Below are positions 1 to 61,519 of a stretch of DNA of 64,000 nucleotides, piece by piece; within the stretch, counting starts at the first letter, position 1; each line of letters starts with the position of its first letter. The stretch comes from Camelus ferus (taxonomy: Eukaryota). The translations under genes were made by a program, and so were the position numbers. Where the stretch lies: assembly GCF_009834535.1 (NCBI RefSeq), contig NC_045696.1, forward strand, positions 1-64,000, given 5' to 3'. The notes beneath the pieces are model-generated. The model ran no database searches. It saw nothing but the letters and a program-made list of their open reading frames with translations, and was not told the DNA's origin.

Positions 1-3000
1 TCCAACACAATCTTTACTGCAGTAACTAAAACAAAAAAGATGCACTGCACAGCAACTCTTCCTTTAGAGACACAGTGTCAGCAATGTTTCTAGCTTCATG
101 GGAAAATGCCTAAATTCAACTGAAGCAGAGATGAAGTGAGATATCTCACTTTGAGTATGTGAGAAAGCCAAACACAACTCGTAGATATGCTTGCTTCCCA
201 ACAACAAAAAAACTTTATCATGACAGTGCAGGTCAGGGATATTTTCCATATTCACTGTATTCCTAACATGTGTAAAGTGTCAAGGTTTGGGTTGATGTGA
301 GCAGAATTACAACACCCATTCAAATAATCTTTTTGCCCCTTCATTTGAATGCTTCAAATTAGCAGTGTCAAGTGAGAGTCTGTTGCTGATCCAAGGAGGA
401 GAGGGTGCCCATGTTGTTCAGAACAGGAACATAGAATAATTTTAGATAACATGGAAATAATTGCTCACAAAGTGTCCACAATTTTGCTGAACATTTTCCC
501 GTTGATTCACAGGATACAATGAATACTAAGATTTGGAAAAATAAGCTGGGTAGGAAGAGATCTTCTCCCACTTCTGCTACCATTGTTGTCATGCTCTCCA
601 GGAACTTTTTCAAACTGGGTTCAATTTGAAATCTCAAATTCAGGTTGAGAGAAACAGTTTCAGAACTGAGACATAGGATACTTTCCAATTCACAGTAACC
701 CATTTTTCCCAGAAAGGCACAAGACTGAATTCACACATGCCCATTTCATTTCATAGATCGAACATGCTGGAAGTTCCCGTGCATGGAGCAAAATATCATA
801 GACACAATCCTACAAATGGTTTTCCGCATTCACTCTCTCTTTCATAGAGTTAGTTCCACATAAGCGAAAAACTGTGATTCCATTTGAAATAGGAGCCAAG
901 TCCTTGTGCAACACTGTCACTAGCCGTTTCCCGACAGCCAAACTTTCCTTACTTGCAAACCAATCGTCAATGTGAATTTCCTTCAAACATGTCTTATCCA
1001 AAATTGAGAATTGTTAAAGCATACATTGAAGAAAATCACTCACTTAGGAGAGCTTAACCTACAAGCTATCTTATTCCTTAGTATACTTCCTACAGAAATC
1101 TTCATAACGGGTGAAGTAAAATATCTACATTGGATGATGAATGTATGCTTCTGAATGTGCAAATGTGCTCGCTTCCATCCTTGAAAACCAATGTGTCCCC
1201 AAAAAAGAAGCTCAATGAAAACTGGCCCATGTCGTGTTCCTCCAAATAGCGAAGTTACAGAAGATGAATTTCACATGAACTAATGCTGAAAAATGTTTAT
1301 CTGCACAAAACACTCAGCATTAATGTTAGATTTTGAATGATTTGCTGTTGACTCGGGTTGGATGGGGTATCTTAATGTCACTTTGCCAGATGTACCTTCA
1401 AAATATGGAGGGACAGCTCAGGCTAAACATGAAAATCCCAGATTTTGCCATCAATTCCCAAGAAGACAGTATCTCTCAGCTCTTCTGTTCCCAAAATGAA
1501 ACACAAGGCAACCATTTGTAACAAATGGACAAAAATTGCAAGGGGAATCTATCCTGTTCTTGGCTTCTTACCTTGGATGCCTTCTGTAGACATTGCAAGA
1601 TCCAGAGAAGCTGGGGTACTGAGGCCAAACTAGTGAAATGGCCATTCCAATTAAACATGGGAAGTAATTTAGTGTGCTGTGCTCTACCAAAATCTTGGAT
1701 CAGGTCAGCTCACACAACCACAGATTGATCCCAGGAATGAAAGGTTCATAAACGTGAGGAACACTGGGCGACTTACCTAGGAGATAGTCTCACAAGAATC
1801 TTTGTCTCACCATAACTTCATGATAGCTAAAATGCTTTTCAAGATGACTGAAGATGAGGAAGAATGGCACGATGCAGTGAAATCTTATGGAACATGAAGA
1901 CAGGCTCGTATGACAAAGATGAATGCCTCACATTTTAAAATTGCCAGAAGACTGAAAAATTCCTCATTTTCATAGTTCCAAGATGGGAACAGATTCCAAG
2001 ATGGTGAAGTTAACTCAATATGCTTCATACTGTCCACGTAGTCCTTCCAGCATGTTAAATTATCCTAGATCGAAATATTCAGTTGGGGGAACTTGGAGAA
2101 ATCACAGTGAGTTTAATTGCATGGCCTCACTCACAAGCTAGATATAGGCTGGGTCCTCAATTGCACCACTTACATAATCCCAACAAGGCAGAAGGAGGTT
2201 TTTCACAATATATGTTTTGTCTAGTGACAAAAACCTAAAAGCTGCATTTCACAGCCCCTCATTTTTCAAGAGATATTGTGTCAACAAATTTTCCAAATTG
2301 CAGGTGGCATTCCTAATGGCACAAAACTCTTGTATGAATGGAATGGACTCAATGTGAGTGTGTGAGAAAGCCTATCAGAACTTGGATTGTGGATGGCTTC
2401 CCCAACACCAAAATTCTCTTATTCTTACAATGCAGAAAGAGAAGATTTTTTCACATTCATTGTACTCCCAAGATGCATCACCTATGAACGTTAGGGTTGA
2501 TCTTATGGAAATTAGAAATCCCTTTCAAACAATCCTCTTTCCACCTTGCTTAGAATGGTTTGTAAAAGCTGGGTCTGCTGATGGGCTGTTAGTGTGACTA
2601 TGATGAGTTTTGCCAAGGACCTTCAGGACAGGAACACAGTCTACTTACAGAAACGGAGGAAACCAATGGCTCCCTTAACCTTCGATGTTATTTCACATTT
2701 TCCATTCCATTCCTACAATGGAATGATTGTCTAAGATTCGGCACCAAGAAGCTGCATAGGGAGAGATCATCTCACAAGTATATCACTTCACTTGGCATGC
2801 TGATCGGGAACATTTTTAATCTGGGTTCAATTTGGTATCTTGAGACAAATTTGAGAGAAATTATTTCAGAACATGTATATAGGTCTCTTTCCAAATCAAG
2901 GAAACCATTTTCTCCCCATGATGACACAAGTCAAAAATTATCCTTACACGTTTTATTCCCTTAAGGAACATGTTGCAAGACTCTTTGCATGTAGACCAGG

Positions 3001-6000
3001 GTCACAAAACACATTCCTGAAAATGGCTTGCCACAGTGTATCTCAATTTTGTTTTAGACAGTTCAACATTTGAGAAAACTGTGATTCCTAATGCATTAGG
3101 GGACAAGGTTTTGTGGAACACTGAAATAGATGCATTTTTCAAATGCATAAATACTCTGTCTTGCTAGGAAGTGATGGAGTGAATTTTTTTCAAACATGAG
3201 TTCTTGGAAATTGAGGATCGTTACAGGATATATTGAACCGTAGTACAAAATTTCCAGGAGAGAGTACCCTCAAAGCTGTCTTCTTTTGTGCTACTTTTCC
3301 TACAGAAATTTCATGAAAGCTGAAGTAAATTATCTGAGTTCAAAGAAGAATTGAGGCCTATGAGAATGTGCAGATTAGCTACTTCCATCCTTGTAATCAG
3401 TGTGTCCTGAAAATGCAGTGCAGTGAAAACTGGCCAAGTCATATTCCTCCCAAATAGGGACATTTTCTGAAGGAGAATTTTGCCTAAGGATCTGCTGAAC
3501 AGAGTTTATTGCACCAATAAAACAGCATTCCTAATAGCTTTCCTATGAGTTCCTTTTGGGTGAACTTAAATGCACTACTTAATGTCACCTTCCCAGATGG
3601 ACCTTCATAACATACAGGGAACCTCATGCCAAACATGGAAACCCCGGTTATTATCATCAATTCCCTGTTAGGGATTTTCCCAAGTCCCTTCTATTCTCCT
3701 AAAGAACCAATTAAGAAATATTTGTGTGCAGAGGATATGGATAAAGATGACTTTCTAAAGAGCATCTTTTGAATATTTCCTTAGATTCAGCCTGTGGAAT
3801 GTGAAGATCAAGGAGAAGCTGATGTAGTAAAGATGAACTTCAACAGAAACCTCTCAGATTTTTGATGGACAGTCTTCTCCTTTCAACAAAACACTGAACT
3901 TCCAAATTCTGGGAAAAATTCAACATAAACTCTCCTCAATTTAATCCCAGATTTGCAAGATTTTAAAATCTGTGGGGCATACAGACTCCTATCTACAAGT
4001 TGTTTTCACATGAATCTTGATCTCACCATCAACTGACAGTAACTGGAATGCATCAAAAAATGCTGAAGTTGAGGAAGGAAAGGCAGGTTGCATTGAATTC
4101 TTAAGAACAAGGTGATAGGAGCATGTGCCAAATGGAGGAAGCCACATATTCGAAAAGTGGACAAGACTGAAAATTTCCTCAATTGTTTGAACTGAGGTGA
4201 GAAAGAAGGGCTTTGAGATATGAACTACTTTGGAATTAGTGGCAAAAGAAAGACTGGGTGCATCTAACATGAAGTGCTTTACCTATCCACATAGTCCTTA
4301 CAGCAAGTGGACTTTTGCTCTATCGAAACGTTCTGTGAGGTGAACATTGAGATTACGCTGGGGGTTTCAATGCACGGTCTCTATCTCAATTAAGACATAG
4401 GAAATTTTCTCAATGCTCAAAATTGGTGATTCAAGTAAGGCAGAAGGAGTTTTCCAAACCAATCTTTCCTGCAGTGACTAAAACCAAACAAGATGCATTT
4501 CACAGCACCTCTTCCTTTAGAGACACTCTGTCCACAATGCTTCCAACTTCGTGGGAAATTGCCTAAATTCAGATGAAGCAGAGATGAAGTGAGCTATCTC
4601 GATGTGAGTGTGTGAGAAAACCGATCACTACTCGTAGATATGCTTGCTTTCCAAAACAAAAAACTCCTTTATTCATGACAGCACAGGTGAGGTATATTTT
4701 CCACACTCCTTATGTTCCCAATATGTGTAAAGTTTCAAGGTTTAGGTTGATGTGAGTGGAATTACAACACCCATTCAAATAATCTTCTTTGCTCCTTCAT
4801 TTGAATGCTTCAAGTAAGCAGTGTCAAATGAGGGGCTATGGCTGATCCAAAGAGGAGCTAGTGCCCAGGTCATTCAGTGCAGGAACATAGAATAATTTCA
4901 AATATCGTGGAAATCATTGCTCATGAATTGTCCCACGAATTTGCTGAAAGTTTTCCCATTGATTCCCAGGATACAATGAATTTTACGATTTGGAACAATA
5001 AGCTGGGTAGGAAGAGGTCTTCTCCCACTTCTTCTACCATTGTTGTCATGCTCCCCAGGAATGGTTTCAAAGTGGGTTCAATTTGACATCTCAAGTTCAG
5101 GTTGAGAGAAACAGTTTCAGAACCTAGACATAGGCTTCTTTCCCATTCACAGTAACCCATTTTTCCCAGAATGGCACAAGACTGAAATCACGCATGCCCA
5201 TTTCATTTCATAGAGTGAACATGCTGGAAGGTCCCGTGCATAAAGCTAAATGTCATAGAGACAATCCTAAAAATGGCCTTCTGCATTCACTCTATCTTTC
5301 ATAGAGTTAGTTACACATAAGTGAAAAACTGTGATTCCATTTGGAATAGGAGCCAAGAACTTGTGAACTCTCACACACAGCCATTTCCCAACTGCCAAAG
5401 TTTCCTTACTTGCAAACCAATCATTGGTGTGAATTTCCTTCAAACATACCTTATCCAAAATTGAGAAATGTTAAAGCATACATTGAAGAAAAGCACACAT
5501 TTAGGAGAGATTACCCTCCAAGCTGTCTTCTTCCTTAGTATTATTCCTACAGAAATCTTCATAATGTGTGAAGTAAAATATCTACGTAGGATGATGAACG
5601 TATACTTGTGAATGCACAAATGGGCTCACTTCCATCCTTGGAAACCAATGTGTCCCCAACAATGAAGCACAAAGAAAACTGGCCCATGTTTCATTTCTAG
5701 AAATAGGGAAATTACAGAAGATGAATTTCATGTGAACTAATGCTGAAGAATGTTTCTCTGCATAAAACATTCAAAATTCCTGATAGGTTTCAACTGAGGT
5801 ATTGTTGACTCAGCTGGGATGAGGCATCTTAATGTCACTTTGCCAGATGTACCTTCAAAATATGGAGGGACAGCTCAGGCCACTCATGAAAATCCCAGAT
5901 TTTGACATCAGTTCCCAAGAAGGGAGTATCCCTCAGCTGTTCTGTTCCCAAAATGAAACACAGGGCAAACATTTGTATCAAGCGGACAATAAATGAATGA

Positions 6001-9000
6001 GGATTGCTAGCTGTATTCTTTGCTTCTTCCCTTGGATGCCTTCTGTGGACATTGCAAGATCTGGGGAACCTGGGGTACTGAGGCTGAACTACTGAAATGG
6101 CCTTTCCAACTACTCATGGGCAGTAATAGACAGCATGCTATGATCTACCAAAATCTTGGACCAGGTCAGCTCACACAACCACAGATTGATCCCAAGAATG
6201 AAAGGTTCAAAAACTTGAGGAACCCAGGACAACCTATCTAGGAGATAGTCTCAAAAGAATCTTTGTCTCACCATAACTTCATGACAGCTAGAGGCCTTTT
6301 CAGGATGGCTGAATTTGAGGAAGAAAGGCAGGATGCAGTGAAACCTTATGGAACATGAAGAAAGGCTTGTACACCAAAGGTGAATCCTCACATTATAAAA
6401 GGGCCAGAAGACCGAAAACTTCCTCATTTTCTTAGTTCCAAGATGGGAACAGGTTTACAAGACTGGGTGAAGCTAACAAAATGTGCTATATACTGTCCAA
6501 GTAGTCCTTCCAGTTTGTGAAAATATGCTCTATCGAGACATTCAGTTGGGGGAACATGGAGAATTCACAGTGGGTTTTAATGCATGGACTCACTCACAAG
6601 CTACATATAGGCTGAGTCCTCATTTGCACCACTTACATGATCCCAACTAAGCAGAAGGAGGTTTTCACAATACATTTTGTGTCTAGTGACAAGTACCTAA
6701 ATGTTGCATTTCACAGCCCCTCATTTTCAAGAGATATTCTGTCAAAAAGTTTTCCTAAATAGCAGGTGACATTCCTAATGGCATAAAAGTCGTGGATGAA
6801 TGGAATGGACTCAATGTGAGTGTGTGAGAAAGCCTAACAGAACTTGGATAGTGGATGGCTTCCCCAACACCAAAATTCTCTTATTTTATAATGCAAAAGA
6901 GAATATTTTTTAACATTCATTGTAATCCCAAGATGCATCACCTATGAACTTTAGGGTTGATCTTATGGAAATTAGAAATCCCATTCAAACAAACCTCTTT
7001 CCACCTTGCTTAGAGTGGTTTGTAAAAGATGGGTCTGCTGAGGGTCTGTTAGTGTGACTATGATGAATTTGGGACAAGGACCTTCAGGACAGGAACAAAG
7101 TCTACTTACAGAAACGGAGGAAACCCATGGCTCCCTTTAACCTTCGATGTTATTTCACCTATTCCATTCCATTCCTACACTGGAAAGTTTGTCTAAGATT
7201 CGGCATAAAAAGCTGCATACGGAGAGATCATCTCCCAATTATATCACGTCATCAGGCATGCTGATCGGGAACATTATCCATTTGGATTCAATTTGATATC
7301 TCAAGTTCAGGTTGAGAGAAAAAGTATCAGAACCGAGATATAGACTTCTTTCCCATTCAATGTAACCCATAATTCCCACAGTGGCACAAGGCTGAAATCA
7401 TCCTTACCATTTTCACTTCATGTTGCATATGTTTAGAAAGGTCAGTGCATGAAGCTAAATGGCGCAGAAAACCTCCTTCAAATGGCTTTCCGCATTCACT
7501 CTGTATTTCATATAGTTAGTTCAACATAAGAGAAAAACTGTAATTCAGTTTCAATTAGGAGATATTGTGGAACAATAACACACAGCCAATTCCTGACTGC
7601 CAAAATTCTGTCTTGCAAACAATCTGACGGTGTTAATTTCTTTCAAAAACCTTATCCAAAATTGAGAACTGTTATTGCATATATTGAATAAAAGCACTCA
7701 TTTAGGGAAGATTACCCTCCAAGCTGTCTTCTTCCTCAGTATAATTGTGACAGAAATCTTCATAACGGCTGAAGTACATTATCTACATTGGATGATGAAC
7801 GTATGCTTCTGAATGTGCAAATGGGCTCACTACCATCCTTGAAAGCCAATGTGTCCTCAAAAGTGAAGAGCAATGAAAACTGGCCCATGTTGTATTCCTC
7901 CAAATAGCGAAGTTACAGAAGATGAATTTCAACTTAACTAATGCTGAAGAATGTTTCTCTGCACAAAACACTCAGCATTCCTGATAGATTTTGAATGAGC
8001 TGCTGTTGACTCAGCTGGGATGAGGTGTATTAATGTCACTTTGCCAGATGTACCTTCAAAACATGGAAGGACAGCTCAGGCCAAACACGAAAATCCCAAA
8101 TTTTGCCATCAACTCTCAAGAAGGGACTATACCTCAGGATGTCTGTTCTCAAAATGAATAAACAGGTCAAGCATTAGTTCCAAGTGGACAAGAGTTGCAA
8201 GACAATTGCTAGCAGTATTCTTTGCTTTTTCCTTTGGATGAATTCTGTGGACATTGCAAGATCTGGAGAAGCTGGGGTACTGAGGCCGAACTTGTGAAAT
8301 GTCCTTCCCAAGTACTCACGGGCAGTAATTGAAAGCATGCTGTGCTCTACAGAAATCTTGGATCATGTCATCTCACCCAACCACAGACTGTTTCTCAAGA
8401 ATATAAGGTTCTAAAACCTGTGGAACACAGCACGACCTATCTAGGATTTAGTCTCACAAGAATCTTTGTCTCACCATAACTTCATGCCAGCTAGAATGCT
8501 TTTCAAGATAGGTGAATTTGAGGAAAGAATTTCAGGTTGCAGTTAAATCTTATGGAACATGAAGACCAGCTCAAAAGACTAAGACAAACACCTCACTTTT
8601 TAAAACTGCCAGAAGACCAAAAGTTTCCCCATGTGCTTAGTTCCAAGATGGGAACAATTTCCAAGACTGGGTGAAGCTAACACAATGTGCTTCAAACTGC
8701 CCAAGTAGTCCTTCCAGCATGAGAAAATATGTTCGATCGAGACATTCAGTGGGGTGATCTAGGAGAATTCACAGTATGTTTTAATGCATTGCCTCATCAC
8801 AAACTAGATATAGGATGGGTACTCAATCGCATCAATTATATGATCACAACAAGGCAAAAGGAGATTTCACACAGAGAGTTTTTGTCTAGAGATAACTGCC
8901 TAGAAGCTGCATTTCACAGCCCCTCATTTTCAAGAGATATTGTGTCAACAAATTTTCCAAATTAGCAGGTGACTTTCCTAATGGCACATAAATAGGGGAT

Positions 9001-12000
9001 GAAGGAAATGGACTCAATGTGAGTATGTGAGAAAGAATACCAGAACTTGGATATTGGATGGCTCCCCCAACACCAAAATTCTCTTATTCCTACAATGCAG
9101 AAGAAGCAAATTTTTTCACATTCTTTGTAGTCCCAAGATATGTCACCTATGAACATTAGGGTTTATCTTATGGAAATTAGAAGATGCGTTCAAACAATCC
9201 TCTTTCCACCATGCTTAGAATGTTTTCTAACAGCTGGGTCTTCTGAGGGGCTATCAGTGTATCTACGATGAGTTTTGGCCAAGGACATTCAGGACAGGAA
9301 CAAAAGCTTCTTAGGGAAACCGTGGAAACTCAGGGCTCCCCTTAAAGTCAGATGATTCTTCATCAATTCCGTTCCATTCCTAGAGTGGAATGATTGTCTA
9401 AGATTTGGCACAGGAAGCTGCATGAAGAGAGATCTTCTCCCAATATTATCACTTCTCCTGGTATGCTGTTCGGGGGCATTTTCAAGCTGAGTTCAATTTG
9501 AAAACTCGATGCAAAGTTGAGAGAAATTATTTCATAAAAAGTTTATAGGTTCCTTTCTAAATCATAGAAAGCCTTTCTTCCCATGGTGGCACCAGGCAGA
9601 AATCATTCTTACCCATTTCATTCCCACAAGGGATCATGTTGGAAGATTCTGTGCATGTAGATCAATATCAAGAACACATTCCTGCAAATGGCTTGCCACA
9701 GTGTTTCTCCTTTTGTAAATACAGTTCAATATTTGAGAAAACCACGATTCCTCGTGCATAATGGGACAATGTTTTGTGGAAAACTGAAGTAGAACCGTTT
9801 CCCAAATGCCTAAATACTCTATGTTGCAAGGAAATGATTGGGCAAATTTTCTACAAATGTGAGATCTCCAAAATTCAGAATCATTACAGGACATATTAAA
9901 GTGAAGCACAAATTATTCAGGAGAGAGTACACACAAAGCTGTCTTCTTTTGTGCTATTCTTCTTACAGAAAAATTCATGACAGCTAAAGTAAATTATCTG
10001 AGTTCAAAAAGAATTGTGGCCTATGAGAATGTGCAGATTGGCTGACTTTCGTCTGTGTAAATCAATGTGTCCTCAAAAATGCAGTGCAGTGAAAACTGGC
10101 CAACATCATATTCCTCCAAATAGGGATGTTTCTGAAGGAGAATGTTGCCTATAGATCCACTAAAAAGGGTTTATTGCACCATTAAATCAGCTTTCCTAAT
10201 AGGACCTTGGGAAGGTCCACCTTCCCAAATGGACCTTCATAACATGCAGGGAACCTAATCCCAAACACGGAAATCCTGGTTTTTATCATCAATTCCCCTT
10301 TAAGGGATTTTCCCAAGGCACTTATATTCCCCTAAATAACCATATGAGAATAATTTCTGTGCAGATGATGTGACTACAGATGACATTTAAATAGCATCCT
10401 TTGCACATACCCTTTGATTCACTCTGTGGGAAGTGAAGAGCAAGGAGAAACAGAAGTAGTAATGATGAACTTGAACAGAATCCTCACAGATAATGGACTT
10501 ACTGTTCTCTACTTTAGGCAAAACTCTGCACTTCCAATTTCTGGGAAAAAGTCAAATTAACATCTCCACAAGTGTATCCCAGATTAGAAGGTTTTAAAAT
10601 CTAAAGGTCACAGAGAATCCTATCTATAATAACTTTTCACACGAATCTTGATCTTGCCATCAACTGACGCTAATGACAATGTTTCAAATGAAGCTGAATT
10701 GGAGGAAGGAAAGGCAGGTTTCAGTGAAATCTTACAGAACATGGTGATAGAATCGTGTGCCAAATGGAGTAGCCACATATAAGAAAATTAGCAGAATGAA
10801 AACTTCCTCAATTGTTTGAATCAAAGGTGGGAAGAGAAGGGCTGTGGGAGATTAACTAATTTGGAATTAGTGGCAAAAGTAACACTGGGTGCATGTAACA
10901 TGAAGTGCTTTCTCCTGCCCACGTAGTCCTTTCAGCAAGCAGACATTTCCTCGATCGACACATTCTGTGAGGTGAAGATTGATATTACCATGGGGGTTTT
11001 AATGCACGACCTAAATCACAAGGAAGACATAGGATTATTTCTCAATGCCTCAAATCTGAACAAGGCAGAAGGAAGTTTCCCACACAATCTTTCTTTTATT
11101 GACTAAAATGAACAAGATGCATTGCACAGACCTCTACCTCTAGAGACACACTTTCAGCAAAGTATCCAAGTATGTGGGAAATTGCCTAAATTCAACCAAA
11201 GCAGAGATGAAGCAAGCTAACTCGCTGTTTGTGTGTGAGAAAGCCTATCACAGCTCATATATATGCTTGCTTCCCAACAACAGAAAAACACCATCATCAT
11301 GACAGCATAGGTGAGAGATATTGTCAGCACTCTTTCTATACCCAATATGTGTAAAGTGTCAAATTTTGGGTTGATGTGACTGAAATTACAAGACCCATTC
11401 TAAAAATCTGCTTTGCAATTTCATGTGGATGTTATCAGTAAGCAGTGTCAAGTGAGGGGCTGTGGCTGATCCAAAGAGGATCTTGTGCCCAGGTCATTCA
11501 GGGCAGGAACATAGAATATTTTCGGATACCATGGAAATCAGTGCTCATGAAGTGTCCCACGAATTGGCTGAACCGTCTCCCATTGATTCCTAGGGTATGA
11601 TGAATATAAAGATTCTGTACAGTAAGCTGGGTAAGAAAGATCTTCTCCCACTTCTGCTATCATTGTTGTCATGCTTTCCAGGAACAGTTTCAATCTGGGT
11701 TCAATTTGACATCTCAAGTTCACGTTGAGAGAAACAGTGTCAGAACCGAGATATAGGCTTCTTTCCCATTCACAGTAACCCATAATTCCCACAGTGGCAC
11801 AAGGCTGAAATCATCCTTACAAGTATCATTTCATGAAGCGAATGTGTAGAAAGGTCCGTGCATGAAGCTAAATGTCTTAGAGACTCTGCTTCAAATGGCT
11901 TTCCACATTCACTCGGTATTTCATAAAGTTAGTTAAACATAAAGGAAAAACTGTGATTCAATTTCAATTAGGAGACTTTGTGGAACAATGACACACAGCC

Positions 12001-15000
12001 ATTTCTCAACTGCCAAAATTCTCTGACTTCAAACAACGTGATGGTTTGAATTTCTTTCAAAAACCTTATCCAAAATTGAGAACTGTTATTGTATATATTG
12101 AATAAAAGTACTCATTTAGGAGAGGTCACCCCCCAAGTTGTCGTCTTCCTCAGTATACTTCTGACAGAAATCTTCATAACGGCTGAAGTACATTATCTAC
12201 ATTTGATGATGAACGTACGCTTCTGAATGTGCAAATGGGCTCACTACCATCCTTGAAAGCCAATGTGTCCTCAAAAATGAAGAGCAATGAAAATTGGCCC
12301 ATGTTGTATTCTCCAAATAGCAAAGTTACAGAAGATGAATTTCACCTGAACTAATGCTGAAGAATGTTTCTCTGCACAAAACACTCAGCATTCCTGAGAG
12401 ATTTTGAGTGAGCTGCTGTTAACTCAGCTGGGATGAGGTGTCTTAATGTCACTTTGCCAGATGTACCTACAAAGCATGGAAGGACAGCTCAGGCCAAACA
12501 TGAAAATCCCAAATTTTGCCATCAACTCCCAAAAAGGGACTATACCTCAGGATGTCTGCTCCCGAAATGAAACAAAGGGGAAGCATTGGTTACAAGCAGA
12601 GAAGAATTGCAAGGGAATTGCTAGCAATATTCTTTACTTCGTCTTTTGGATGAATTCTGTGGACATTGCAAGATCTGGAGAAGCTGGTGTACTGAGCCTG
12701 AACTTGTGAAATGGCCTTTCCAAGTACTCACAGGCAGTAACTGAAAGCGTGCTGTGCTCTACCAAAATCTTGGTTCATGACAGCTCACCAGACTACAGAT
12801 TGTTTCCCAAGAATGAAAGGTTCTAAAACCTGTGTAACACAGGGCGACCTATCTAGGATTTAGTCTCACAAGAATCTTTGTCTCGCCATAACTTAATGTC
12901 AGCTAGAATGGTTTTAAAGATGTCTGAAATTGAGGAAAGAAAGTCAGGATTCAGTGGAATCTTATGGAACATGAGACAGGCACATAAGCCTAAGACAAAA
13001 GCCTCACGTATTAAAACAGCCAGAAGAGTGAAAAATTCCCCATGTACTTAGTTCCAAGATGGGAACAGTTTTCCAAGACTGGGCGAAGCTAACACAATGT
13101 GTTTCAAACAGTCAAAGTAATCCATCCAGCTGTGATATTATGACCAATCGAGACATTCGATTGGAGGGGGAAATTGGAGAATTCAAAGTGGGTTTTAATG
13201 CAAGGCTTCATCACAAGCTAGATATAGGATGGGTCCTCCATTGCACCACTTACATGATCACAACAAGGCAAGAGGCACTTTCACACATAGTTTTTTGTCT
13301 AGTGACAAGTACCTAAAAGCTGCATTTCACAGGCCCTCATTTTCAAGAGACATTCTGTCAACAAATTTTCCAGCTTAGCAGGTGACGTTTCTAATGGCAC
13401 ATTAATAAGAGATGAAGGGAATGGGCTCAATGTGAGTGAGTGAGAAAGCCTATCAGAACTTGGATATTGGATGGCTTCCCCAACATCGAAATTCTCTTAT
13501 TCCTACAATGCAGAAGAAGGAAACTTTTTCACATTCATTGTACTCCCAAGATGCGTCACATATGAACATTAGGGTTGATCTTACAGAAATTAGAAGGCGC
13601 GTTCAAACAATCCTCTTTCCACCTTGCTTAGAATGGTTTGTAACAGCTGGGTCTGCTGAGGGTCTGTCAGTGTATCTATGATGAGTTTGGGCCAAGGACC
13701 TTCAGGACAGGAAGAGGATTCTTAGGGAAACCATGGAAATTAAGGGCTCCTTTGAACCTGTGATGTTTTTTCATCAATTACGTTCCATTCCTAGAGTGGA
13801 ATGATTGTCTAAGACTCGGCACAAGAATCTGCGTGAAGAGAGACCTTTTTCCAATTTTTTCACTTCTCTTATCATACTGTTAGGGAGCACTTTCAAGCTG
13901 GGTACAATTTGACATCTCGAGACAAAGTTGAGAGAAATTATTTCACCACAGGTTATAGGTTCCTTTCCAAATCACGGGAACAACTTCTCCCCATGGTAGC
14001 ACCAGGCAGAAATCATTGTTACCCGTTTAATTCCCATAAGGGAACATGTTGTAAGATTCCGTGCATGTATATCAAGGTCACGAACACATTCCGGCAAATG
14101 GCTTGACACAGTGTAACACATGTTTGTTAATAAAGTTCAGAGTTTGAGAAAACCGTGATTCCTTGTGCATTATGGGACCAGGTTTTTTGGAAAACTGAAA
14201 TAAAGCCGATTGTGAAAGTCCTAATTACTCTCTGTTCCAAGGAAGTGATGGGGGGAATTTTCTTCAAACATGAGATCTCCAAAATTCAGAATTGTTACAG
14301 GACATATTGAAGTGAAGCACGAATTATTCAGGAGAGAGTACCAACAAAGCTGTCTTCTTTTGTGCTATTCTTCTTACAGAAAACTTCATGAGAGCTGAAG
14401 TAAATTATCTGAATTCAAAGAATAAGAGACGCCTATGAGAATATGCAGATGGGCTAAATTCCATCCATGTAATTCAATGTGTCCTGAAAAAGGTAGTGCA
14501 GTGAAATATGTCCAAAGTCATATTACTCCAAATAGGAACGTTTCTGAAGGAGAATGTTGCCTATAGACCTGCTAAAAAGTGTTTATTGCACCATTAAATC
14601 AGCTTTCTTAATAGCTTTCTTAAGAGCTGCTTTTGGCTGAGCTGAAATGCACCACTTAATGTCAACTTCCCAGATGGACCTTCACAACATGCAGGTAACA
14701 TCATCCCAAACATGGAAATCCTGGTTTTTATCATCAATTCCCAAAAAGGCATTTTCCCAATCACTTCTGTTCCCCTAAAAACCATTATGAGAATCATTTG
14801 TGTGCAGATGATATGACTACAGATGACTTTTAAAGAGCATTCTTTGCACATATCCTTTGATTCACTCTGTGGAATGTGAAGATCAAGGAGAAGCTGATTT
14901 ATTAAGGAAAAACTTGAAAGAAGCTTCATAGATTATAGACTTACCATTCTCTATAATAGGCAAAACCCTGGAATTCCAATTTCTGGGAACAGGTCAACTT

Positions 15001-18000
15001 AACATCTCCCCAAGTGTATCCCAGATTTAAAAGATTTTAAAATCTAATGGGCACAGAGACTCCTATCTACAATAGGTTTTCACATGAATATTGATCTTGC
15101 TGTCAACAGACGCTAACGAGAAAGCATTCAAATAAAGCTGAAGTGAAGCAAGGAAAGGCAGGTTGCATTGAAATCTTACAGAACATGATGATAGAATCAT
15201 ATGCCAAATGGAGTAACCCCATATTTGAAAAGTGGCAAAAGACTGAAAGCTTCAACAATTGCTTGAACCTAAGGTGGGAAAAGAAGGGCTGTGGGAGATT
15301 AACTAATTTGGAGTTAGTGGCAAAAGTAAGACTGGGTGCATCTGACACGAAGTGTTTTCTCCTGTCCACGAAGTCCTTTCAGCAAGTGGACGTTTGCTCG
15401 ATGACACGTTCTGTGAGTTTAAGATTGATATTACTGTGGGGGTTTTAATGCACGGCCTCAATCACAAGGAAGACATAGGATTTTTTCTCAATGCCTCAAA
15501 TCCGAACAAGGCAGAAGGAAGTTTCCCACACAACCTTTCTTTTATTGACTAAAATGAACAAGATGCATTGCACATACCTCTACATCTAGAGACAATCTTT
15601 CGGCAAAGTTTCCTAGTATGCGGGAAATTGCCTAAATTCAACCGAAGAAGAAATGAAGTGAGCTAACTTGCTGTTAGTGTGTGAGAAAGCCTATCACAGC
15701 TCATAGATATGCTTGCTTCCCAACAAGAGAAAAACACCTTTATCATGACAGAACAGGTGAGGGATATTGTCCACACTCATTGTATTCACAAAATATGTAA
15801 AGTTTCAAAGCTTGGGTTGATGTGACTGAAGTTACAAGACCCATTCTAACAATCTGCTTTGCACTTTCATTTGGATGCTACCAGTAAGCAATGTCAAGTG
15901 TGGGGCTGTGGCTGAACCAAAGAGGATCTTGTGCCCAGGTCATTCAGGGCAGGAACATAGAATATTTTCGGATACCATGGAAATCAGTGCTCATGAAGTG
16001 TCCCACGAATTGGCTGAACTTTCTCCCATTGATTCCTAGGATTTGATGAATATAAAGATTCGGAATGGTAAGCTGGGTAGGAAGAGATCATCTCCGACTT
16101 CTGTTAACGTTGTTGTCATGCTCTCCAGAAATGGTATCAATCTGGGTTCAATTAGACATGTCAAGTTCAGGTTGAGAGAAACACTATCAGACCTGAGATA
16201 TAGGCTTCTTTCCCATTCACAGTAACCCATATTTCCCACAATGGCACAAGGCTGAAATCATCATACTAGTTTCATTTCATGCAGCAAACGTTTTGAAAAG
16301 TCCCGTGCATGTAGCTAAGTGTCGTAGAGACTCTGTTTCAAATGGCTTTCCGCATTCACTCTGTATTTCATAAAGTTAGTTCAACATAAGAGAAAAACTG
16401 TGATTCCATTTCAAATAGGAGAGCTTCTGGAACAATAACACACAGCCATTTCCCGACTACCAAAATTCTCTGACTTGCAAACAACGTGATGATGTGAATT
16501 CCTTTCAAACAGCTTATCCAAAATTGAGAACTGTTATTGCATATATTGAATAAAAGCACTCATTTAGGAGAGCATACCCTCCAAGCTGTCTTCTTCCACA
16601 GTATATTTCCCACAGATATCTTCATAATGGCTGAAATAAATTATCTACGTTGGATGATGAACGTATGATTCTGAATGTGCAAATGGGCCCACTTCCATCC
16701 TTGAAAACCAATGTGTCCCCAAAAATGAAGCACAATGAAAACTGGCCCCGTCATATTCCTCCAAGTAGCGAAGTTACAGAAGATGAATTTCACCTGAACT
16801 AACGCTGAAGACTGATTCTCTGCACAAAATACTCAGCATTCCCTATAGGCTTCGAATGAGCTGCTGTTGACTCAGCTAGGATGAGGTGTCTTAATGTCAC
16901 TTTGCCAGATGTACCTTCAAAACATGGAAGGACAGCTTAGGCCAAACATGAAAATCCCAAATTTTCCCATCAAATCCTAAGAAGGGAGTGGACCTCAGGT
17001 TGACTGTTACCAAAATGAAACACAGGGAAGCATTTGTTTCAAGTGGAAAGAAATGCAATAGGATTGCTAGCATTATACTTTGCTTCTTCTTTTGGATGAA
17101 TTCTGTGGACATTGCAAGATCTGGGGAAGATGGGGTACTGAGGCCGAACTTGTGAAATGGCCTTTCCAAGTACTCACGGGCAGTAATTGAAAGCATGCTG
17201 TGCTCTACCAAAATCTTAATTCACGTCAGCTCTCCTGTTTGCAGGTTGTTTCCCAGGAATGAGAGGTTCTAAAACCTGTGGAACACAGGTCGACCTATCT
17301 AGGCTTTAGTCTCACAAGAATCTTTCTCTCACCGTAACTTCTTGTCAGCTAGAATGCTTTTCAGTATGTCTGAATTTGAGAAAAGAAAGTCAGGATGCAG
17401 TGAAATCTAATGTAATATGAAGACAAGCTTGTAATCCTAAGAGCAAAGCCTCATGTTTTAAAACTGCCAGAAGACCGAAAATTTCCCATGTGTTTAGTTC
17501 CAAGATGGGAACAATTTCCCAAGACTTTGTGAAGCTAACACAATGTGCTTCAAACTGTCAAAGTAGTCCTTCCAGTGTGAAAATATGCTCGATCAAGATA
17601 TTCAGTGGGGGGAAATTGGAGAATTCACATTGGATTTCAATGCATGGCCTCATCAAAGCAAGATGTACGATGGGTCCCAAATTGCACAACTTACATGATC
17701 ACTACAAGGCAGAAGGGGGTTTCACACATACACTTTTTTGTCTAGTGACAAGTACCTAAAAGCTGCATTTCACAGCCCCTCATTTGCAAGAGACATTCTG
17801 TCAACAAATTTTCGAACTTAGCAGGTGACTTTCCTAATGGCATATAAATAGGATATGAAGGGAATGGGCTCAATGTGAGTGTGTGAGAAAGCCTATGAGA
17901 ACTTGGATATTTGATGGCTTCCCCAACACCAAAATTCTCTTATTCCTACAATGCAGAAGAAGGAAATTGTTTCACATTAATTATACTCCAAAGATGCATC

Positions 18001-21000
18001 ACCTATGAACGTTACAGTTATCTAATGTAAATTAGAAGATGTGTTCAAACAACCATCATTCCACCTTGCTTACAATGGCTTGTAACAGCTGGGTCTGCTG
18101 AGGGGCTGTCAGTGTAATTATGATGAGTTCAGGACAAGGACCATCAGGAAAGCACAGAGGCTTCTTCGGGAAACCGTGGAAAATCAGGTCTCCCTTGAAC
18201 CTGCGATAATTTTTCATCAATTCTGTTCCATTCAAACAGTGGAAAGATTGTATAACATTTGGCACAAGAAGCTGCATGTGAGAGAACTTCTCCCAAATTT
18301 ATCACTTCCCTTGGCATGCTCTTCAGGAGCATTTTCAAGCTGGGTCCAATTTGATATATTGAGACAAAGTTGAGAGAAATAATTTCACAACAAGTATATT
18401 GGTTCTTTACAAATCATGGAAACCACTTCTTCCTATGGTGGCACCAGGCAGAAATCATTCTTACCCATTTAATTCCCATAAGGGAACTTGTTGGAAGATT
18501 CTGTGCATGTAGATCAAGGTCACGAACACATTCCTGCAAATGGCTTGCCACAGTGTATCTCACTTTTGTAATTACAGTCCAACATTTGAGTAAACAGTGA
18601 TTTCTGTTGCATTATGGGACATGGTTTTGTGGAAAACTGAAATAGAGCCGTTTCCCGAATGCCTAAATATCCTATGTTGCAAGGAGGTGATTGGGCGAAT
18701 TCTATTCAAACATGAGACCTCCAAAATTCAGAACCGTTAAAGGGCATATTGAAGTGATGCACGAATTATTCAGGAGAGTGTACCAACAAAGCTGTCTTCT
18801 TTTGTGCTATTCTTCTTACAGAAAACTTCATGAGAGCTGAAGTAAATAATCTGAATTCGAAGAAAAAGGGAGTCTTATAAGAATGTGCAGATGGGCTGAC
18901 TTCTGTCCGTGTATTTCAATGTGTCTTCAAAAATCCAATGCAGTGAATACTGAGTAATGTCGTATTACTCAAAATACGGACATTTCTGAAGGAGAATGTT
19001 GCCTATAGATCCACTAAAAAGGGTTTATAGCACCATTAAATCAGCTTTCCTAATAGCTTTCCTAAGAGCTTCTTGTGGCTGAGCTGAAATACACCACTTA
19101 ATGTCACCTTCCCTGATGTACCTTCATAATATGGAGGGAACATTATGCCATACATGGTAATCACGTTTTTTATCATCAATTTCCAATAAGGGATTTTGCC
19201 TAGTCCCTTTTGTCCCCCTAAGGAACCACATGACATACATATTTGTGCAGATGTTATGGCTAAAGATGACTATGTAAAGAGAATCCTTTACACATTTCCT
19301 TAAATTCACTCTGTGGAATGTGAAGATCAAGGATAAGCTGATGTGTTAAAGACAAACTTGTACAGAAACCTCTCAGATTACAGATGGACCGTTCTCTCTA
19401 TTAGGCAAAACCCTGCAATTTCAAATTCTGGGAAAAAGTGAAATTAACATCTCCCCAAGTGTATTCCAGATTTTCACAATTTTAAAATCTGAGGGGCACA
19501 GAGGATCCTATCTATAAGGCATTGTAACACGACTCTTTATATGCCATCAACTATGCAAATGAGAATGATTTCAAAAAATGCTAACGTGGAGGAAGGAAAG
19601 GCCATTTGTAGTGAAATGTTTCAGAACATGGTGAAAGGACGGTGTGCCAAATGGAAAAGCCCCATATTCGAAAAGAGGCAGAGGACTAAAATCTTCCACT
19701 AATGTTTGATCTTTAGGAGGGAAATTAATGTCTGTGGGAGAATAACTATTTTGGAATTAGTGGCAAAATTCAGACTGGGTGCATCTAACATGAAGTGCTG
19801 ACTCCTCTCTATGTAGTCCTTTCAGCAAGTGCACGTTTGCTCGATCAACCTGTTCTGTGAGGTGAACATTGGGATTAAACGGGGTTTGAATGCATGGGCT
19901 CAATCACATGTAAGGCAAAGTGATTTTTCTCAATGCCTCAATATTTGTGATCCAAACAATTCAGAAGAAAATTCCCCACACAATCTTTCCTATAGTAACT
20001 GAAACCAACAAGATGAATTGCACAACACCTAGAGACACTCTGCCACCAATGTTTACAACTTCGTGGTAAATTGACTAAATTCAACTGAAGTAGAGATGAA
20101 GGGTGCTATCTCTCTGTGAATTTGTGAGAAATCTTATCATAGCTCGTATATACGCTTAATACCCAACAACAGCAGTACTCATTTATCATGACAAAACAGG
20201 TGAGGGATACTGTCCTCAAACATTGTATTCCCATCATGTGTAAAGTGTCAAGGTTTGGGTTGATGTGAGCAAAATTACAAGACCCATTCAAATAAATTTT
20301 GCAAATTCATTGGGATGCTTATAATAAACAATGAAAAGTGAAGGGCTGTCGCTAATCCAAAGAGGAGCTGATGCACAGGTACTTAAGGGAAGGAATATAA
20401 AATAACTTCAGATAACGTGGAAATTACTGCTCATGAAATGTCCCGTGTATTTGCTGAAATATTTGGCATTGATTCCCAGGATAAGATGAATACAAAGATT
20501 CAGAAAAATAACCTGGGTAGGAAGAGATCTTCTCCCACATCTCTTAATATTGTTGTCCTGCTCTACGGGAACAGTTTCAAACTGGGTTCAATTTGACATC
20601 TCAAGTTCAGGTTGAGAGAAACATTTTCAGAACCGAGACATAGGCTTCTTTCCCGTTCACTGTACCCATATTTCCCAGAACGGCACAAGACTGTAATCAT
20701 TCTTACCAGTTTCATTTCATGCAGTGAACATGTTGCAAGGTCCTGTGCAAGAATCTAAATGTCGTAGAGACACTCCAACAAATGGATTTCCGCATTCAGT
20801 CTCTCTTTAAATAAGTTAGTTAAACATAAGAGAAAAACTGTGATTCCTTCTGGAATAGGAGCCAAGATCGTGTGGAATATTGACACACAGCCATTTCCTG
20901 CCTGCCAAAGTTCTGTGACTTGCAAACAAAGCACTGATTTGAATTTCCTTCAAAAATGCATTTTCCAAAATTGAGATTTGTGAAAGCATTCATTGAAGAA

Positions 21001-60402: not shown

Positions 60403-60540
60403 ATAGAAAAGAAGCAGGATGCTACAAAAATGAGAAATGTAACAGGAAAGGAGATAACTGCCATGAATCACAAAAAGAATAAACACAAATTTGTAAAAGA
60501 AGACATCTAAATCATTAAGAGTGAGAGAGGGAAGCAAGGA

Positions 60541-60912: not shown

Positions 60913-60941
60913 AATAAATAAATAAATAAGTTAGTTAATAA

Positions 60942-61000
<59 letters not shown>

Positions 61001-61497: not shown

Positions 61498-61499
61498 TA

Positions 61500-61511: not shown

Positions 61512-61519
61512 GTTTCTGT

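What the first reader, a model, noticed from the sequence alone, without database searches (positions are those of the whole stretch)
990..5450. Hidden three-level hierarchy: ~245 bp x 9 = 2.2-kb monomer, x 2 = 4.45-kb HOR
Seen: under the obvious kb-scale repeats, two degenerate motifs recur every ~245 bp. Motif 1 (about AAGGCCTTTCAGAAC..GA.ATAGG) lies at ~1147, 1394, 1640, 1882, 2124, 2369, 2617, 2860, 3106, 3355, 3600, 3848 and 4098. Examples are gaaagcctatcagaacttggattgtgg, aaggaccttcaggacaggaacacag, gaaattatttcagaacatgtatatagg, gaggcctatgagaatgtgcagattag and gaaatcttatggaacatgaagacagg. Motif 2 (about TTCCCAAGATG) lies at 995, 1240, 1488, 1728, 1976, 2465, 2710, 2956, 3201 and ~3446. The HOR is therefore an 18-mer of an ancient unit. 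Inference: this is a satellite that went through three successive rounds of amplification, like alpha-satellite HOR formation but far more diverged. I do not recognise it as a named family.
Basis: partly seen in the sequence, partly recalled or inferred. Interest (0 to 1): 0.8.

Follow-up and report, generated by a model that had tools for sequence, protein, structure and literature searches.

The report
Fossil 18-unit satellite repeat, camelid genome
A 4.45-kb tandem repeat at a chromosome end really is built from eighteen badly eroded copies of a ~247-bp unit, and it lies beside a younger 247-bp satellite that is probably its living relative, so it is an ordinary but instructive fossil of satellite DNA turnover.

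Summary
Window 990-5450 is one 4.45-kb unit made of two ~2.2-kb halves. Each half holds nine ~246.7-bp subunits, which are about 40% identical to one another. Autocorrelation peaks fall at every multiple of 246 bp, and the comb statistic exceeds all shuffles. Profiles trained without a subunit position still find 17 of 18 held-out subunits.

The interpretation needs refining in three ways.
- The 4.45-kb copies are only 75-87% alike, so this is a decayed array, not a homogenised higher-order repeat (HOR).
- It is non-coding and CpG-depleted, and it contains an inversion, a lone half-unit and transposon insertions.
- It occurs near the ends of at least seven chromosome-scale scaffolds as block paralogues 92-98% identical, so the last spread was by segmental duplication.

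The genome is probably a camelid.

The new result is that a young, abundant 247-bp satellite lies next to the array on the same scaffold. It has the same monomer length and also forms 18-unit (4.44-kb) HORs. BLAST and nhmmer find no similarity between the two. A gapped profile-profile alignment is modestly significant (p about 0.005-0.008).

Best reading: this is a fossil layer of that satellite lineage. It is a new member of a known kind, of moderate interest.

The parts
1..50117 (+). Main plus-strand block of the 4.45-kb satellite (about 11 units plus a lone half). It holds 203 subunit hits.
   Evidence: 12-mer lags at 4440 bp and multiples. BLAST of one unit against the window. nhmmer with the 18-unit profile gives the block 34-50117.
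990..5435 (+). Its 18 subunits start at about 996, 1239, 1489, 1729, 1976, 2217, 2466, 2711, 2955 (half A) and 3203, 3448, 3707, 3945, 4228, 4468, 4716, 4963, 5206 (half B).
   Evidence: Self-match limits. 18 in-register profile hits. Alignment A1 of the 18 units.
996..3202 (+). Half A: nine ~246-bp subunits, A1-A9.
   Evidence: A_i and B_i are colinear at 49-80% identity, mean 68.8%. Lag peaks at 2207-2216 and 2250-2251 bp.
3203..5452 (+). Half B: nine subunits, B1-B9. B4 carries an insertion of about 40 bp.
5450..7650 (+). Lone A-type half-unit, so the order is AB-A-AB. The same irregularity recurs on other scaffolds.
   Evidence: BLAST: query 4-2674 matches 5450-8115 and a full unit starts at 7651. 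A 2203-bp spacing of the marker 24-mer is seen on C8, C23 and C37. Paralogues L003-L010 span this junction at 92-96% identity.
50134..57747 (-). Inverted and more diverged block of the same satellite, with 31 subunit hits.
   Evidence: BLAST minus-strand matches at 68-77% identity. Junction mapped at about 50134-50137. nhmmer block 50265-57747. This block has the strongest 246-bp comb, 4.25.
57748..64000 (.). Interruption of the array by transposon remnants. The satellite resumes at C1:68946, outside the window. Not part of the repeat itself.
   Evidence: No subunit hits from 57748 to 68945. L1 ORF1 domain at 59865-60128 on the plus strand, and a retroviral envelope domain at 61841-62188 on the minus strand.

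Best explanation
This is a non-coding, old and no longer homogenised satellite DNA ('Sat-4.45k') in the terminal or pericentromeric heterochromatin of a mammal that is probably a camelid.

Proposed history:
1. A monomeric satellite of about 247 bp existed. (Inferred.)
2. Nine already diverged neighbouring monomers were amplified together as a 2.2-kb multimer. That multimer duplicated to give the 4.45-kb A+B unit, which was then amplified into arrays by unequal exchange. (The structure is shown. The mechanism is inferred from standard satellite models.)
3. Homogenisation then stopped. The copies drifted apart to 75-87% identity and lost CpGs. They also acquired an inversion, a lone half-unit, and L1 and endogenous-retrovirus insertions. 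(Shown.)
4. Whole multi-unit blocks were later copied to the ends of at least seven chromosomes. (Shown as 92-98% block paralogues. Ectopic exchange between chromosome ends is the inferred mechanism.)
5. The founding monomer most likely belongs to the same lineage as the abundant, still homogenised 247-bp satellite ('Sat-247') that lies on the chromosome-body side of the array. Sat-4.45k would then be a fossil outer layer of that satellite domain, much like the diverged layers that flank active alpha-satellite arrays in primates. (Inferred. The equal monomer length is the strongest support. The sequence support is modest.)

I assign it no function that depends on its sequence.
For: Structure.
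- Periodicity at every multiple of 246 bp beats all shuffles.
- 17 of 18 held-out subunits are recovered by profiles trained without them, whereas 0 of 900 shuffled units reach 15 bits.
- A_i and B_i are colinear, with mean identity 68.8%. Non-homologous subunits are 40.0% identical, against 33.6-34.7% for shuffled units aligned the same way.

Decay.
- The 10 plus-strand copies have mean K2P 0.219 (range 0.139-0.301). The inverted copy is at 0.418.
- CpG observed/expected is 0.28. Diversity at CpG sites is 0.457 against 0.182 elsewhere.

Non-coding.
- No open frame of 171 aa or more anywhere in the window.
- No period-3 signal, and stops in all six frames of the subunit consensus.
- No Pfam hit for the two longest in-array frames.
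- No Rfam family.

Real DNA. 20 DNA runs from 7 studies hold 35-39% of the sampled 31-mers.

Spread.
- A 24-mer from the unit occurs 159 times (0 in the reversed control) at about 4.44-kb spacing. The listed hits are on C1, C8, C18, C23, C26, C33, C37, C42 and C87; 59 hits were not listed.
- All lie within 0-2.7 Mb of scaffold ends.
- Paralogues are 92.3-97.9% identical to window 3465-6945, while the next-best place in the window matches at only 80-82%.

Link to Sat-247.
- C1:128187-152816 is a tandem array with a 247-bp period.
- It has higher-order lags of 18 (4439 bp), 20 and 38 units.
- 18-unit spacings of 4436-4444 bp are also seen on C94, C187 and C539.
- The unit length is 246.6-246.8 bp, against 246.5-246.9 bp for the cryptic subunit.
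- The order is chromosome body, Sat-247, Sat-4.45k, scaffold end on all three scaffolds where both were listed: C1, C8 and C18.
- The gapped profile-profile local alignment scores 45.7 on the plus strand. It has 179 pairs at a nearly constant offset of 161-166, and 101 of 179 majority bases are equal.
- Controls for that score: minus strand 31.0; reversed profiles 23.8-33.1; 0 of 60 column permutations reach it; block shuffles reach it 2 of 400, 5 of 600 and 3 of 400 times.
- The same offset appears with odd-position and even-position subsets of subunits.
- It also appears with profiles from the older inverted blocks (51.6, 223 pairs, 0 of 150 shuffles) and from the plus block (49.1, 1 of 150).
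Against: Sequence link to Sat-247.
- Ordinary searches see no similarity. The best nhmmer hit of the subunit profile on the Sat-247 array has E=0.17 (5.6 bits).
- BLAST and single-sequence nhmmer of the 4.45-kb consensus against the Sat-247 array give E of 1.5 or worse.
- The Sat-247 profile has no hit at E<=0.01 in the 4.45-kb arrays.
- Ungapped profile comparison peaks at z=3.3 among 488 shifts. I judge this close to what the best of 488 random shifts would give, but I did not compute that expectation.
- Consensus-against-consensus alignment gives p of only 0.018-0.074.
- The subsets share ancestry, so they are not independent replicates.

The shared count of 18.
- The 18-unit lengths may match by chance. 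Sat-247 shows several multimer sizes: lags of 5, 15, 18, 20, 23 and 38 units in C1, and spacings on C36 that I read as 13 and 15 units.
- Its 18-mer has no 9+9 substructure.

Adjacency. The neighbouring position on C1 runs across N gaps at 128068-128167 and 152817-152916, so it rests on scaffolding.

Location. Whether the site is centromeric or subtelomeric is not shown. There is no telomere repeat in the window. On C8 a TTAGGG array lies proximal to both satellites.

Possible constraint. Columns conserved among subunits also vary less among copies (Spearman -0.19 to -0.25). This hints at constraint, or equally at mutation-rate heterogeneity.
Confidence: 0.65

Rival explanations
1. Independent origin. 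The cryptic ~246.7-bp subunit comes from an extinct satellite unrelated to Sat-247. The equal monomer length, and the shared 18-unit length, would be coincidence or would reflect a shared physical constraint on unit length.
For: No similarity by BLAST or nhmmer. Consensus-level p is only 0.018-0.074. Sat-247 has many multimer sizes and no 9+9 structure.
Against: The lengths agree to about 0.1-0.2 bp. The two satellites are neighbours on all three scaffolds where both were listed: C1, C8 and C18. Profile-profile score has p about 0.005-0.008, at one offset and on one strand only.
Confidence: 0.22
2. Derived from a transposable element. The 2.2-kb unit would be an amplified piece of an element that already carried internal ~247-bp tandem repeats.
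For: Satellites born from tandem repeats inside retrotransposons are documented in plants (PMC7004042; title and abstract seen in the listing only). L1 and endogenous-retrovirus remnants lie in the array.
Against: No protein domain in the two longest frames inside the unit. No coding periodicity. The transposon remnants lie between array blocks, not inside the unit. No repeat library could be searched.
Confidence: 0.07
3. The periodicity is maintained by function. Two protein-binding motifs, phased every ~247 bp, would be kept by selection, and the rest of the apparent subunit homology would be secondary.
For: Two motif patches are the most conserved parts of the unit. Conserved columns vary slightly less among copies: diversity 0.166 against 0.206, Mann-Whitney p=4e-9.
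Against: Held-out subunits align in register over nearly the whole unit, for example profile positions 2-231, and not only at the motifs. The effect is small, and mutation-rate heterogeneity or noise in the consensus would also produce it. The array decays like neutral methylated DNA, with CpG observed/expected 0.28.
Confidence: 0.04
4. Assembly artefact. The array, or its layout, would be a product of misassembling repeats.
For: Window 1-34371 is 98.26% identical to C1:93698-128067, which ends at an N gap. This may be a haplotype duplicate or a scaffolding duplicate.
Against: The sequence is held by 20 DNA runs from 7 studies. The same 4.44-kb organisation, and the same irregular junction, recur on many scaffolds at 92-96% identity. 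The subunit periodicity lies inside single contiguous stretches.
Confidence: 0.02

Closest known systems
Primate alpha-satellite higher-order repeats and the diverged layers that flank active arrays (recalled from the literature, not read here)
   Same: Monomers of one length class. A multimer of diverged monomers amplified as a unit. An older, decayed layer lying outside a younger, homogeneous array.
   Different: The monomer is ~247 bp, not 171 bp. Subunits are ~40% identical, against the 60-80% I recall for alpha satellite. The multimer copies are 75-87% identical, not 95% or more. There is no exact match to the CENP-B box pattern. No homology to alpha satellite was tested.
Kilobase-unit satellites of the alpaca, VpaSat01-13 (PMC13751797; sections 3, 4, 10 and part 1 of 2 of section 15 read)
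   Same: Probably the same animal family. Units of 1.8-8.5 kb. Multi-chromosome location next to centromeres. The paper notes 'diffuse' centromere-associated dot-plot patterns that it did not characterise.
   Different: No listed family has a 2.2-kb or 4.45-kb unit with about 60.5% AT. 16 of its 26 primers were tested and none matches C1:1-264000 with 3 or fewer mismatches. A 5.28-kb VpaSat09-like unit from this genome has no 246-bp periodicity and no subunit hit. The paper's consensus sequences could not be seen.
Sat-247, the abundant 247-bp satellite of the same genome (found here, name mine)
   Same: Monomer length of 246.6-246.8 bp. 18-unit multimers of 4.44 kb. Same chromosomal neighbourhood. 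Weak colinear profile similarity.
   Different: Sat-247 is young and homogenised, with same-register copies 95-99% identical and CpG observed/expected 0.86. Sat-4.45k copies are 75-87% identical with CpG observed/expected 0.28. BLAST and nhmmer find no similarity between the two.
Long-unit ruminant satellites with internal subrepeats, such as bovine and cervid satellite I with 31-bp subrepeats (recalled; PMC7288315 seen only in the listing)
   Same: Kilobase units that hide a shorter ancestral period.
   Different: The subunit length differs (31 bp against 247 bp). As I recall, those satellites are GC-rich. No sequence comparison was possible.

Membership tests
Higher-order-repeat satellite (alpha-satellite sense) | Tandem monomers of one length class that are recognisably homologous | tested here: met
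   17 of 18 held-out subunits are found by profiles trained without them. 0 of 900 shuffled units reach 15 bits.
Higher-order-repeat satellite (alpha-satellite sense) | A fixed multimer of diverged monomers repeated as a unit | tested here: met
   18 subunits per 4.45-kb unit, in the same order in 11 copies.
Higher-order-repeat satellite (alpha-satellite sense) | Multimer copies nearly identical, about 95% or more (threshold recalled) | tested here: not met
   Copies are 75-87% identical and the inverted copy 68-69%. Mean K2P 0.219.
Primate alpha satellite (family membership) | 171-bp monomer and sequence homology to alpha satellite | tested here: not met
   The period is 246.5-246.9 bp. Sequence homology was not testable because no repeat library is at hand.
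Alpaca VpaSat catalogue (PMC13751797) | Unit length and AT content equal to a listed family | tested here: not met
   Table 2 lists units of 2326-8550 bp, and none is 2.2 or 4.45 kb at about 60.5% AT. This satellite has GC 0.38-0.41.
Alpaca VpaSat catalogue (PMC13751797) | Published primer sites present | tested here: not met
   16 of 26 primers were tested (families 01, 05, 06, 07, 08, 09, 11, 12). None matches C1:1-264000 with 3 or fewer mismatches. The other 10 primers were not tested.
Alpaca VpaSat catalogue (PMC13751797) | Alignment to the published consensus sequences | not testable with these tools
   The consensus sequences are in Supplementary Table S3 and GenBank. I did not try to open them: the tool description says no supplements are held for papers added after Aug 2026, and no tool here reaches GenBank.
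Sat-247 lineage of the same genome | Same monomer length | tested here: met
   4439/18 = 246.6 bp and 9378/38 = 246.8 bp. The cryptic subunit has comb maxima at 245-247 bp, and about 4440/18 = 246.7 bp.
Sat-247 lineage of the same genome | Significant sequence similarity of the monomers | tested here: inconclusive
   None by BLAST or nhmmer. Profile-profile local score 45.7, reached by 2 of 400, 5 of 600 and 3 of 400 block shuffles. Consensus-level p 0.018-0.074.
Sat-247 lineage of the same genome | Same chromosomal domain | tested here: met
   The two are neighbours on C1, C8 and C18. The listing stopped after 100 of 2158 hits, so other scaffolds were not examined. On C1 the adjacency runs across N gaps.
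Macrosatellite of the D4Z4/DXZ4 type (features recalled) | GC-rich, CpG-island-like kilobase unit carrying an open reading frame or insulator sites | tested here: not met
   GC about 0.39. CpG observed/expected 0.28. No frame of 171 aa or more. Insulator sites were not tested.
Satellite derived from a transposable element | Homology of the unit to a known element | not testable with these tools
   No Dfam or Repbase is available. The only tests were Pfam on the two longest in-array frames (no hit) and Rfam (no hit).

The most novel reading that the evidence does not exclude
Unit length, not sequence, is what this satellite lineage conserves. The ~246.7-bp monomer, and perhaps the 18-unit multimer of 4.44 kb, would have been held constant while the sequence was replaced almost completely. 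That would point to a length-measuring constraint such as chromatin phasing at camelid centromeres. The chromosome ends would then keep a dated stack of past centromere satellites that could be read like strata.
Probability: 0.2. Interest if true: 0.65.

Novelty: new member of a known kind. Interest (0 to 1): 0.4.

Why it matters
Camelid satellite DNA is barely described. The one catalogue I could read (PMC13751797) calls itself the first systematic characterisation. It leaves the centromere-associated 'diffuse' repeats uncharacterised, and in the sections I read it reports no internal sub-periods.

This window shows that at least one kilobase-unit satellite of a probable camelid is a fossil multimer of a ~247-bp monomer. 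A young 247-bp satellite with 18-unit higher-order repeats lies next to it.

If the two are related, the chromosome ends hold an old layer and a young layer of one satellite lineage. That gives a non-primate case for testing layered models of centromere evolution and for asking why unit length outlives sequence.

In practice, the subunit profile and the unit coordinates can be used to annotate these regions and to design FISH probes.

Tried and rejected
- Tandem Repeats Finder sees none of the array, because the period is over 500 bp and the subunits are too diverged.
- Coding origin rejected. No frame of 171 aa or more. No Pfam hit for the two longest in-array frames. No period-3 signal, and stops in all six frames.
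- Rfam: no family at gathering score.
There are 5 one-mismatch hits against 1.69 expected; two of them (24915 and 29370) lie one unit length apart.
- Telomere repeat: none in the window. Genome-wide hits are mostly interstitial and do not settle the location.
- A level between 246 bp and 2.2 kb: mean subunit identity is flat with distance, 39.3-41.1%.
- An 82-column period in the information profile has 6.1 times the mean power. I judge this not significant after allowing for about 123 frequencies.
- Selection on the motifs: the signal is weak and ambiguous.
- A cryptic unit shared with the 5.28-kb VpaSat09-like satellite: none found.
- Direct similarity of the 4.45-kb family to Sat-247 by nhmmer and BLAST: none found.
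- The first whole-genome DNA search, with the full 4.4-kb unit, was not scored because there were too many letters. A 482-bp query worked.
- Earlier findings of this scan: nothing by place or by sequence.
- Sequencing runs: no RNA holder listed.
- Literature searches found no description of a 2.2-kb, 4.45-kb or 247-bp camelid satellite in the held library. PMC4053949 does not mention camelids in its main text. PMC3012921 is not held. I did not look up the VicPac4 genome paper or the 1987 and 1994 restriction-satellite papers, which are cited without PMC ids, so they may describe these repeats.

Full report
**1. What is in the window**

12-mer lag counts show one dominant repeat of about 4440 bp, its multiples, and a weaker 2200-bp lag. 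BLAST of 990-5435 against the window finds head-to-tail copies from 1 to about 50.1 kb on the plus strand. Most are 79-81% identical to the query, and the last two are at 75.5% and 72.4%. Minus-strand copies from about 50.13 to 57.45 kb are 68-77% identical. Cross-matches between the two halves of the unit are 64-70% identical.

In a MAFFT alignment of 11 full copies, the 10 plus-strand copies are 75-87% identical to each other. The inverted copy is 68-69% identical to them. A lone A-type half sits at 5450-7650. Tandem Repeats Finder reports none of this. GC is 0.38-0.42 across the array.

**2. The ~245-bp claim**

Base-identity autocorrelation of 990-5450, smoothed over 7 lags, peaks at 246, 491, 737, 979, 1230, 1476 and 1716 bp. 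On the 4450-bp majority consensus of the 11 copies, the peaks fall at 246, 493, 737, 986, 1232, 1478, 1724 and 1970 bp.

A comb statistic scanned over periods of 150-400 bp is maximal at 246.5 bp, with a value of 3.60. The 200 dinucleotide shuffles give mean 1.20, sd 0.18 and max 2.03. Raw 990-5450 gives 2.50 at 246.0 bp, against a shuffle maximum of 1.76. Of the 11 copies taken singly, 10 exceed that maximum (range 1.74-4.25), all at 245-247 bp.

I cut the consensus into 18 units of 233-285 bp. I then tested homology without circularity. For each of the nine positions, a profile was built from the 16 other units and scored on the held-out A_i and B_i.
- 17 of 18 held-out units were hit.
- 12 of 18 scored at least 15 bits, and the best scored 58.8 bits.
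- Most hits were in register over most of the unit.
- Of 900 dinucleotide-shuffled held-out units, 63 gave any hit, 1 reached 10 bits and none reached 15 bits.

Non-homologous units are 40.0% identical on average (range 31-51.5%). Shuffled units aligned in the same way are 33.6-34.7% identical. A_i and B_i pairs are 49-80% identical, mean 68.8%.

Motif 2 marks the start of the unit, and motif 1 lies at about column 155-175. Both are among the most informative patches of the profile.

**3. What it is not**

It is not coding.
- The longest stop-to-stop frame in the whole window is 170 aa.
- The two longest frames inside the array have no Pfam hit.
- The subunit profile has no period-3 signal, and all six frames of the subunit consensus carry stops.

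There is also no Rfam family, no exact match to the CENP-B box pattern and no telomere repeat.

The array behaves like methylated neutral DNA. CpG observed/expected is 0.28, and diversity among copies is 0.457 at CpG sites against 0.182 elsewhere. Columns conserved among subunits vary slightly less among copies (Spearman -0.19 to -0.25). Rate heterogeneity or consensus noise would give the same pattern, so I do not read this as selection.

**4. Genome context**

The window is the first 64 kb of a 122.45-Mb scaffold, C1, in a 2.087-Gb assembly of 2043 scaffolds. All 14 of the first 37 scaffolds that I sampled are chromosome-sized, from 21.4 to 122.5 Mb. C38 to C42 are 123 kb or less. C37 is 102 Mb. 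This fits 36 autosomes plus an X, that is 2n=74.

PMC13751797 states that all camelids have 2n=74 (section 3). The forward primer of the alpaca satellite VpaSat09-5280 matches this genome 17 times with one mismatch or none, and 0 times in the reversed control. Those matches are spaced at about 5280 bp. The paper reports that this satellite amplifies in all camelids (section 10). It also says that most of the tested satellites gave no product in non-camelid species. I therefore infer a camelid. This is an inference, and it rests partly on my recollection that camelid genomes are about 2.0-2.2 Gb.

An L1 ORF1 domain (59865-60128) and a retroviral envelope domain (61841-62188, minus strand) confirm a mammal.

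On C1 the satellite occupies four blocks and nothing further up to 264 kb:
- 34-50117, plus strand
- 50265-57747, minus strand
- 68946-76241, minus strand
- 86591-127979, plus strand

Window 1-34371 is 98.26% identical to C1:93698-128067, which ends at an N gap. This is either a real duplication or an assembly duplicate.

A 24-mer from the unit occurs 159 times with two mismatches or fewer (0 in the control), at about 4.44-kb spacing. Of these, 100 were listed, on C1, C8, C18, C23, C26, C33, C37, C42 and C87. C401 was seen. On the chromosome-sized scaffolds, the arrays lie 0-2.7 Mb from an end.

Nine 3.5-kb pieces were compared with the window.
- The piece from elsewhere on C1 is 97.9% identical to window 3465-6945.
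- The eight pieces from other scaffolds are 92.3-95.6% identical to it. That stretch includes the irregular junction with the lone half-unit.
- The next-best place in the window matches at only 80-82%.

The 2203-bp spacing that marks the lone half-unit recurs on C8, C23 and C37. So the arrays on different chromosomes are block paralogues. They were copied after the array had already diverged internally. The sequence is held by 20 DNA runs from 7 studies, at 35-39% of sampled words.

**5. The neighbouring 247-bp satellite**

Regions I had chosen as controls, C1:130-145 kb, gave comb values of 4.66 and 5.20 at 246.5 bp. Tandem Repeats Finder shows a 247-bp tandem repeat there, also read as a 493-bp repeat, with 68-70% matches between neighbouring units. 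A profile built from it covers C1:128187-152816 with 102 units, between two N gaps, and hits nowhere else in the first 264 kb. I call it Sat-247.

Its properties:
- Monomer pairs are 72.7% identical on average.
- GC is 0.357 and CpG observed/expected is 0.86.
- 12-mer matches pile up at lags of 38 units (9378 bp), 18 units (4439 bp) and 20 units (4929 bp), and also at 5, 15 and 23 units.
- Copies in the same register are 95-99% identical within C1 and to C36.
- On C94, C187 and C539, the copies are spaced 4436-4444 bp apart, which is 18 units.
- It is abundant. There were 4476 first-look candidates, of which 40 were scored.
- An exact 22-mer occurs 2158 times, and 0 times in the control. The 100 listed hits lie on C1, C2, C4, C8, C12, C13 and C18. 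Those on C1, C2, C4, C8, C12 and C18 are near a scaffold end. I did not fetch the lengths of C4, C12 and C13.

Both satellites were listed on C1, C8 and C18. On each of these, the order is chromosome body, Sat-247, Sat-4.45k, scaffold end.

**6. Are the two related?**

Ordinary searches say no.
- The subunit profile scores at most 5.6 bits (E=0.17) on the Sat-247 array.
- BLAST and nhmmer with the 4.45-kb consensus give E of 1.5 or worse.
- Ungapped profile comparison peaks at z=3.3 among 488 shifts.

A gapped profile-profile local alignment gives a signal.
- It scores 45.7 on the plus strand, with 179 aligned columns at offsets 161-166. There are 10 gap columns, and 101 of 179 majority bases are equal.
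- The minus strand scores 31.0, and reversed profiles score 23.8-33.1.
- Column permutations give mean 30.3, and 0 of 60 reach the observed score.
- Block shuffles reach it 2 of 400, 5 of 600 and 3 of 400 times.

Consensus-against-consensus Smith-Waterman gives p of 0.018-0.074. Odd-position and even-position subsets of subunits both peak at shift 164-165. A profile from the older inverted blocks scores 51.6 over 223 columns at the same offsets (0 of 150 shuffles). One from the plus block scores 49.1 (1 of 150). These subsets share ancestry, so they show consistency rather than independent replication.

The unit lengths are equal: 246.6-246.8 bp for Sat-247 and about 246.5-246.9 bp for the cryptic subunit. 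Taking this together with the neighbouring position, I put common descent at roughly 0.65-0.7. The shared count of 18 may be chance. Sat-247 forms several multimer sizes, and its 18-mer is not 9+9.

**7. Age (rough)**

K2P values are as follows:
- about 0.22 among neighbouring 4.45-kb copies
- 0.42 for the inverted block
- 0.42 between the A and B halves of the consensus
- about 1.26 between subunits

Block paralogues differ by 2-8%. With a recalled mammalian neutral rate of 1-2.2e-9 per site per year, the internal divergence would be tens of millions of years old. The inter-chromosomal spread would be much younger. Heterochromatin may evolve faster, so these are orders of magnitude only.

**8. 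Comparison with what is known**

The architecture works like alpha-satellite higher-order repeats with older flanking layers. It is not a member of that family, because the unit length differs, the copies are not homogeneous, and no homology was tested.

It matches none of the 13 tabulated alpaca families by size and AT content. It also matches none of the 16 of 26 primers I tested. A 5.28-kb VpaSat09-like unit from this genome lacks the 246-bp period.

My six literature searches found no description of these repeats. Dfam, Repbase, the paper's supplement and several older papers could not be seen.

**9. Verdict**

The repeat is a decayed, non-coding satellite of a familiar kind. The added value is the probable living relative next door and the spread by block duplication. 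Interest is moderate.

Noticed in passing
G000 C1:128187-152816 (outside the window; loci L017-L019): A 24.6-kb array of a 247-bp satellite with higher-order lags of 18, 20 and 38 units. CpG observed/expected is 0.86. It is abundant genome-wide: an exact 22-mer occurs 2158 times. It may be the main centromeric satellite of this genome.
   Followed up: yes
window 1-34371 and C1:93698-128067: Two stretches of 34.4 kb are 98.26% identical, and the second ends at a 100-N gap. This is either a real intrachromosomal duplication or a haplotype or scaffolding duplicate.
   Followed up: partly
window 59865-60128 (+): Fragment of an L1 ORF1 protein (Pfam Transposase_22, E=4.7e-13) inside the interruption of the array. 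An (AAAT)n run lies at 60912-61001.
   Followed up: partly
window about 61600-64000 (-): Remnant of an endogenous retrovirus. It has an envelope transmembrane domain (GP41, E=1.5e-7, 61841-62188), a weak HERV-K Rec-like match below Pfam's cut-off (63079-63591), and a frame that looks integrase-like to my eye but has no Pfam hit (63485-63898). Observed only.
   Followed up: partly
window 58001-60000: A segment with GC 0.47 and AT skew 0.25, unlike the array (GC about 0.39). Its frames have no Pfam hit. Its nature was not determined.
   Followed up: no
G000 C36:18853980-18864557, C61, C275, C578 and others: A 5.28-kb satellite that carries the published VpaSat09-5280 forward primer site. There are 17 sites, mostly with one mismatch. 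It has no internal 246-bp period.
   Followed up: partly
G000 C8:74576882-74577527 and C5:97604577-97606291: Long TTAGGG arrays inside scaffolds. On C8 the array lies proximal to both satellites. These are either interstitial telomere repeats or scaffolds joined beyond a true telomere.
   Followed up: no
window 50134-57747 and C1:68946-76241 (both minus strand): The two inverted blocks flank the roughly 11-kb transposon-bearing gap. By my mapping to the unit consensus, they are roughly in phase, to within about 100 bp. This would fit insertion into a pre-existing array, but cross-matches between the A and B halves make the phase uncertain.
   Followed up: partly
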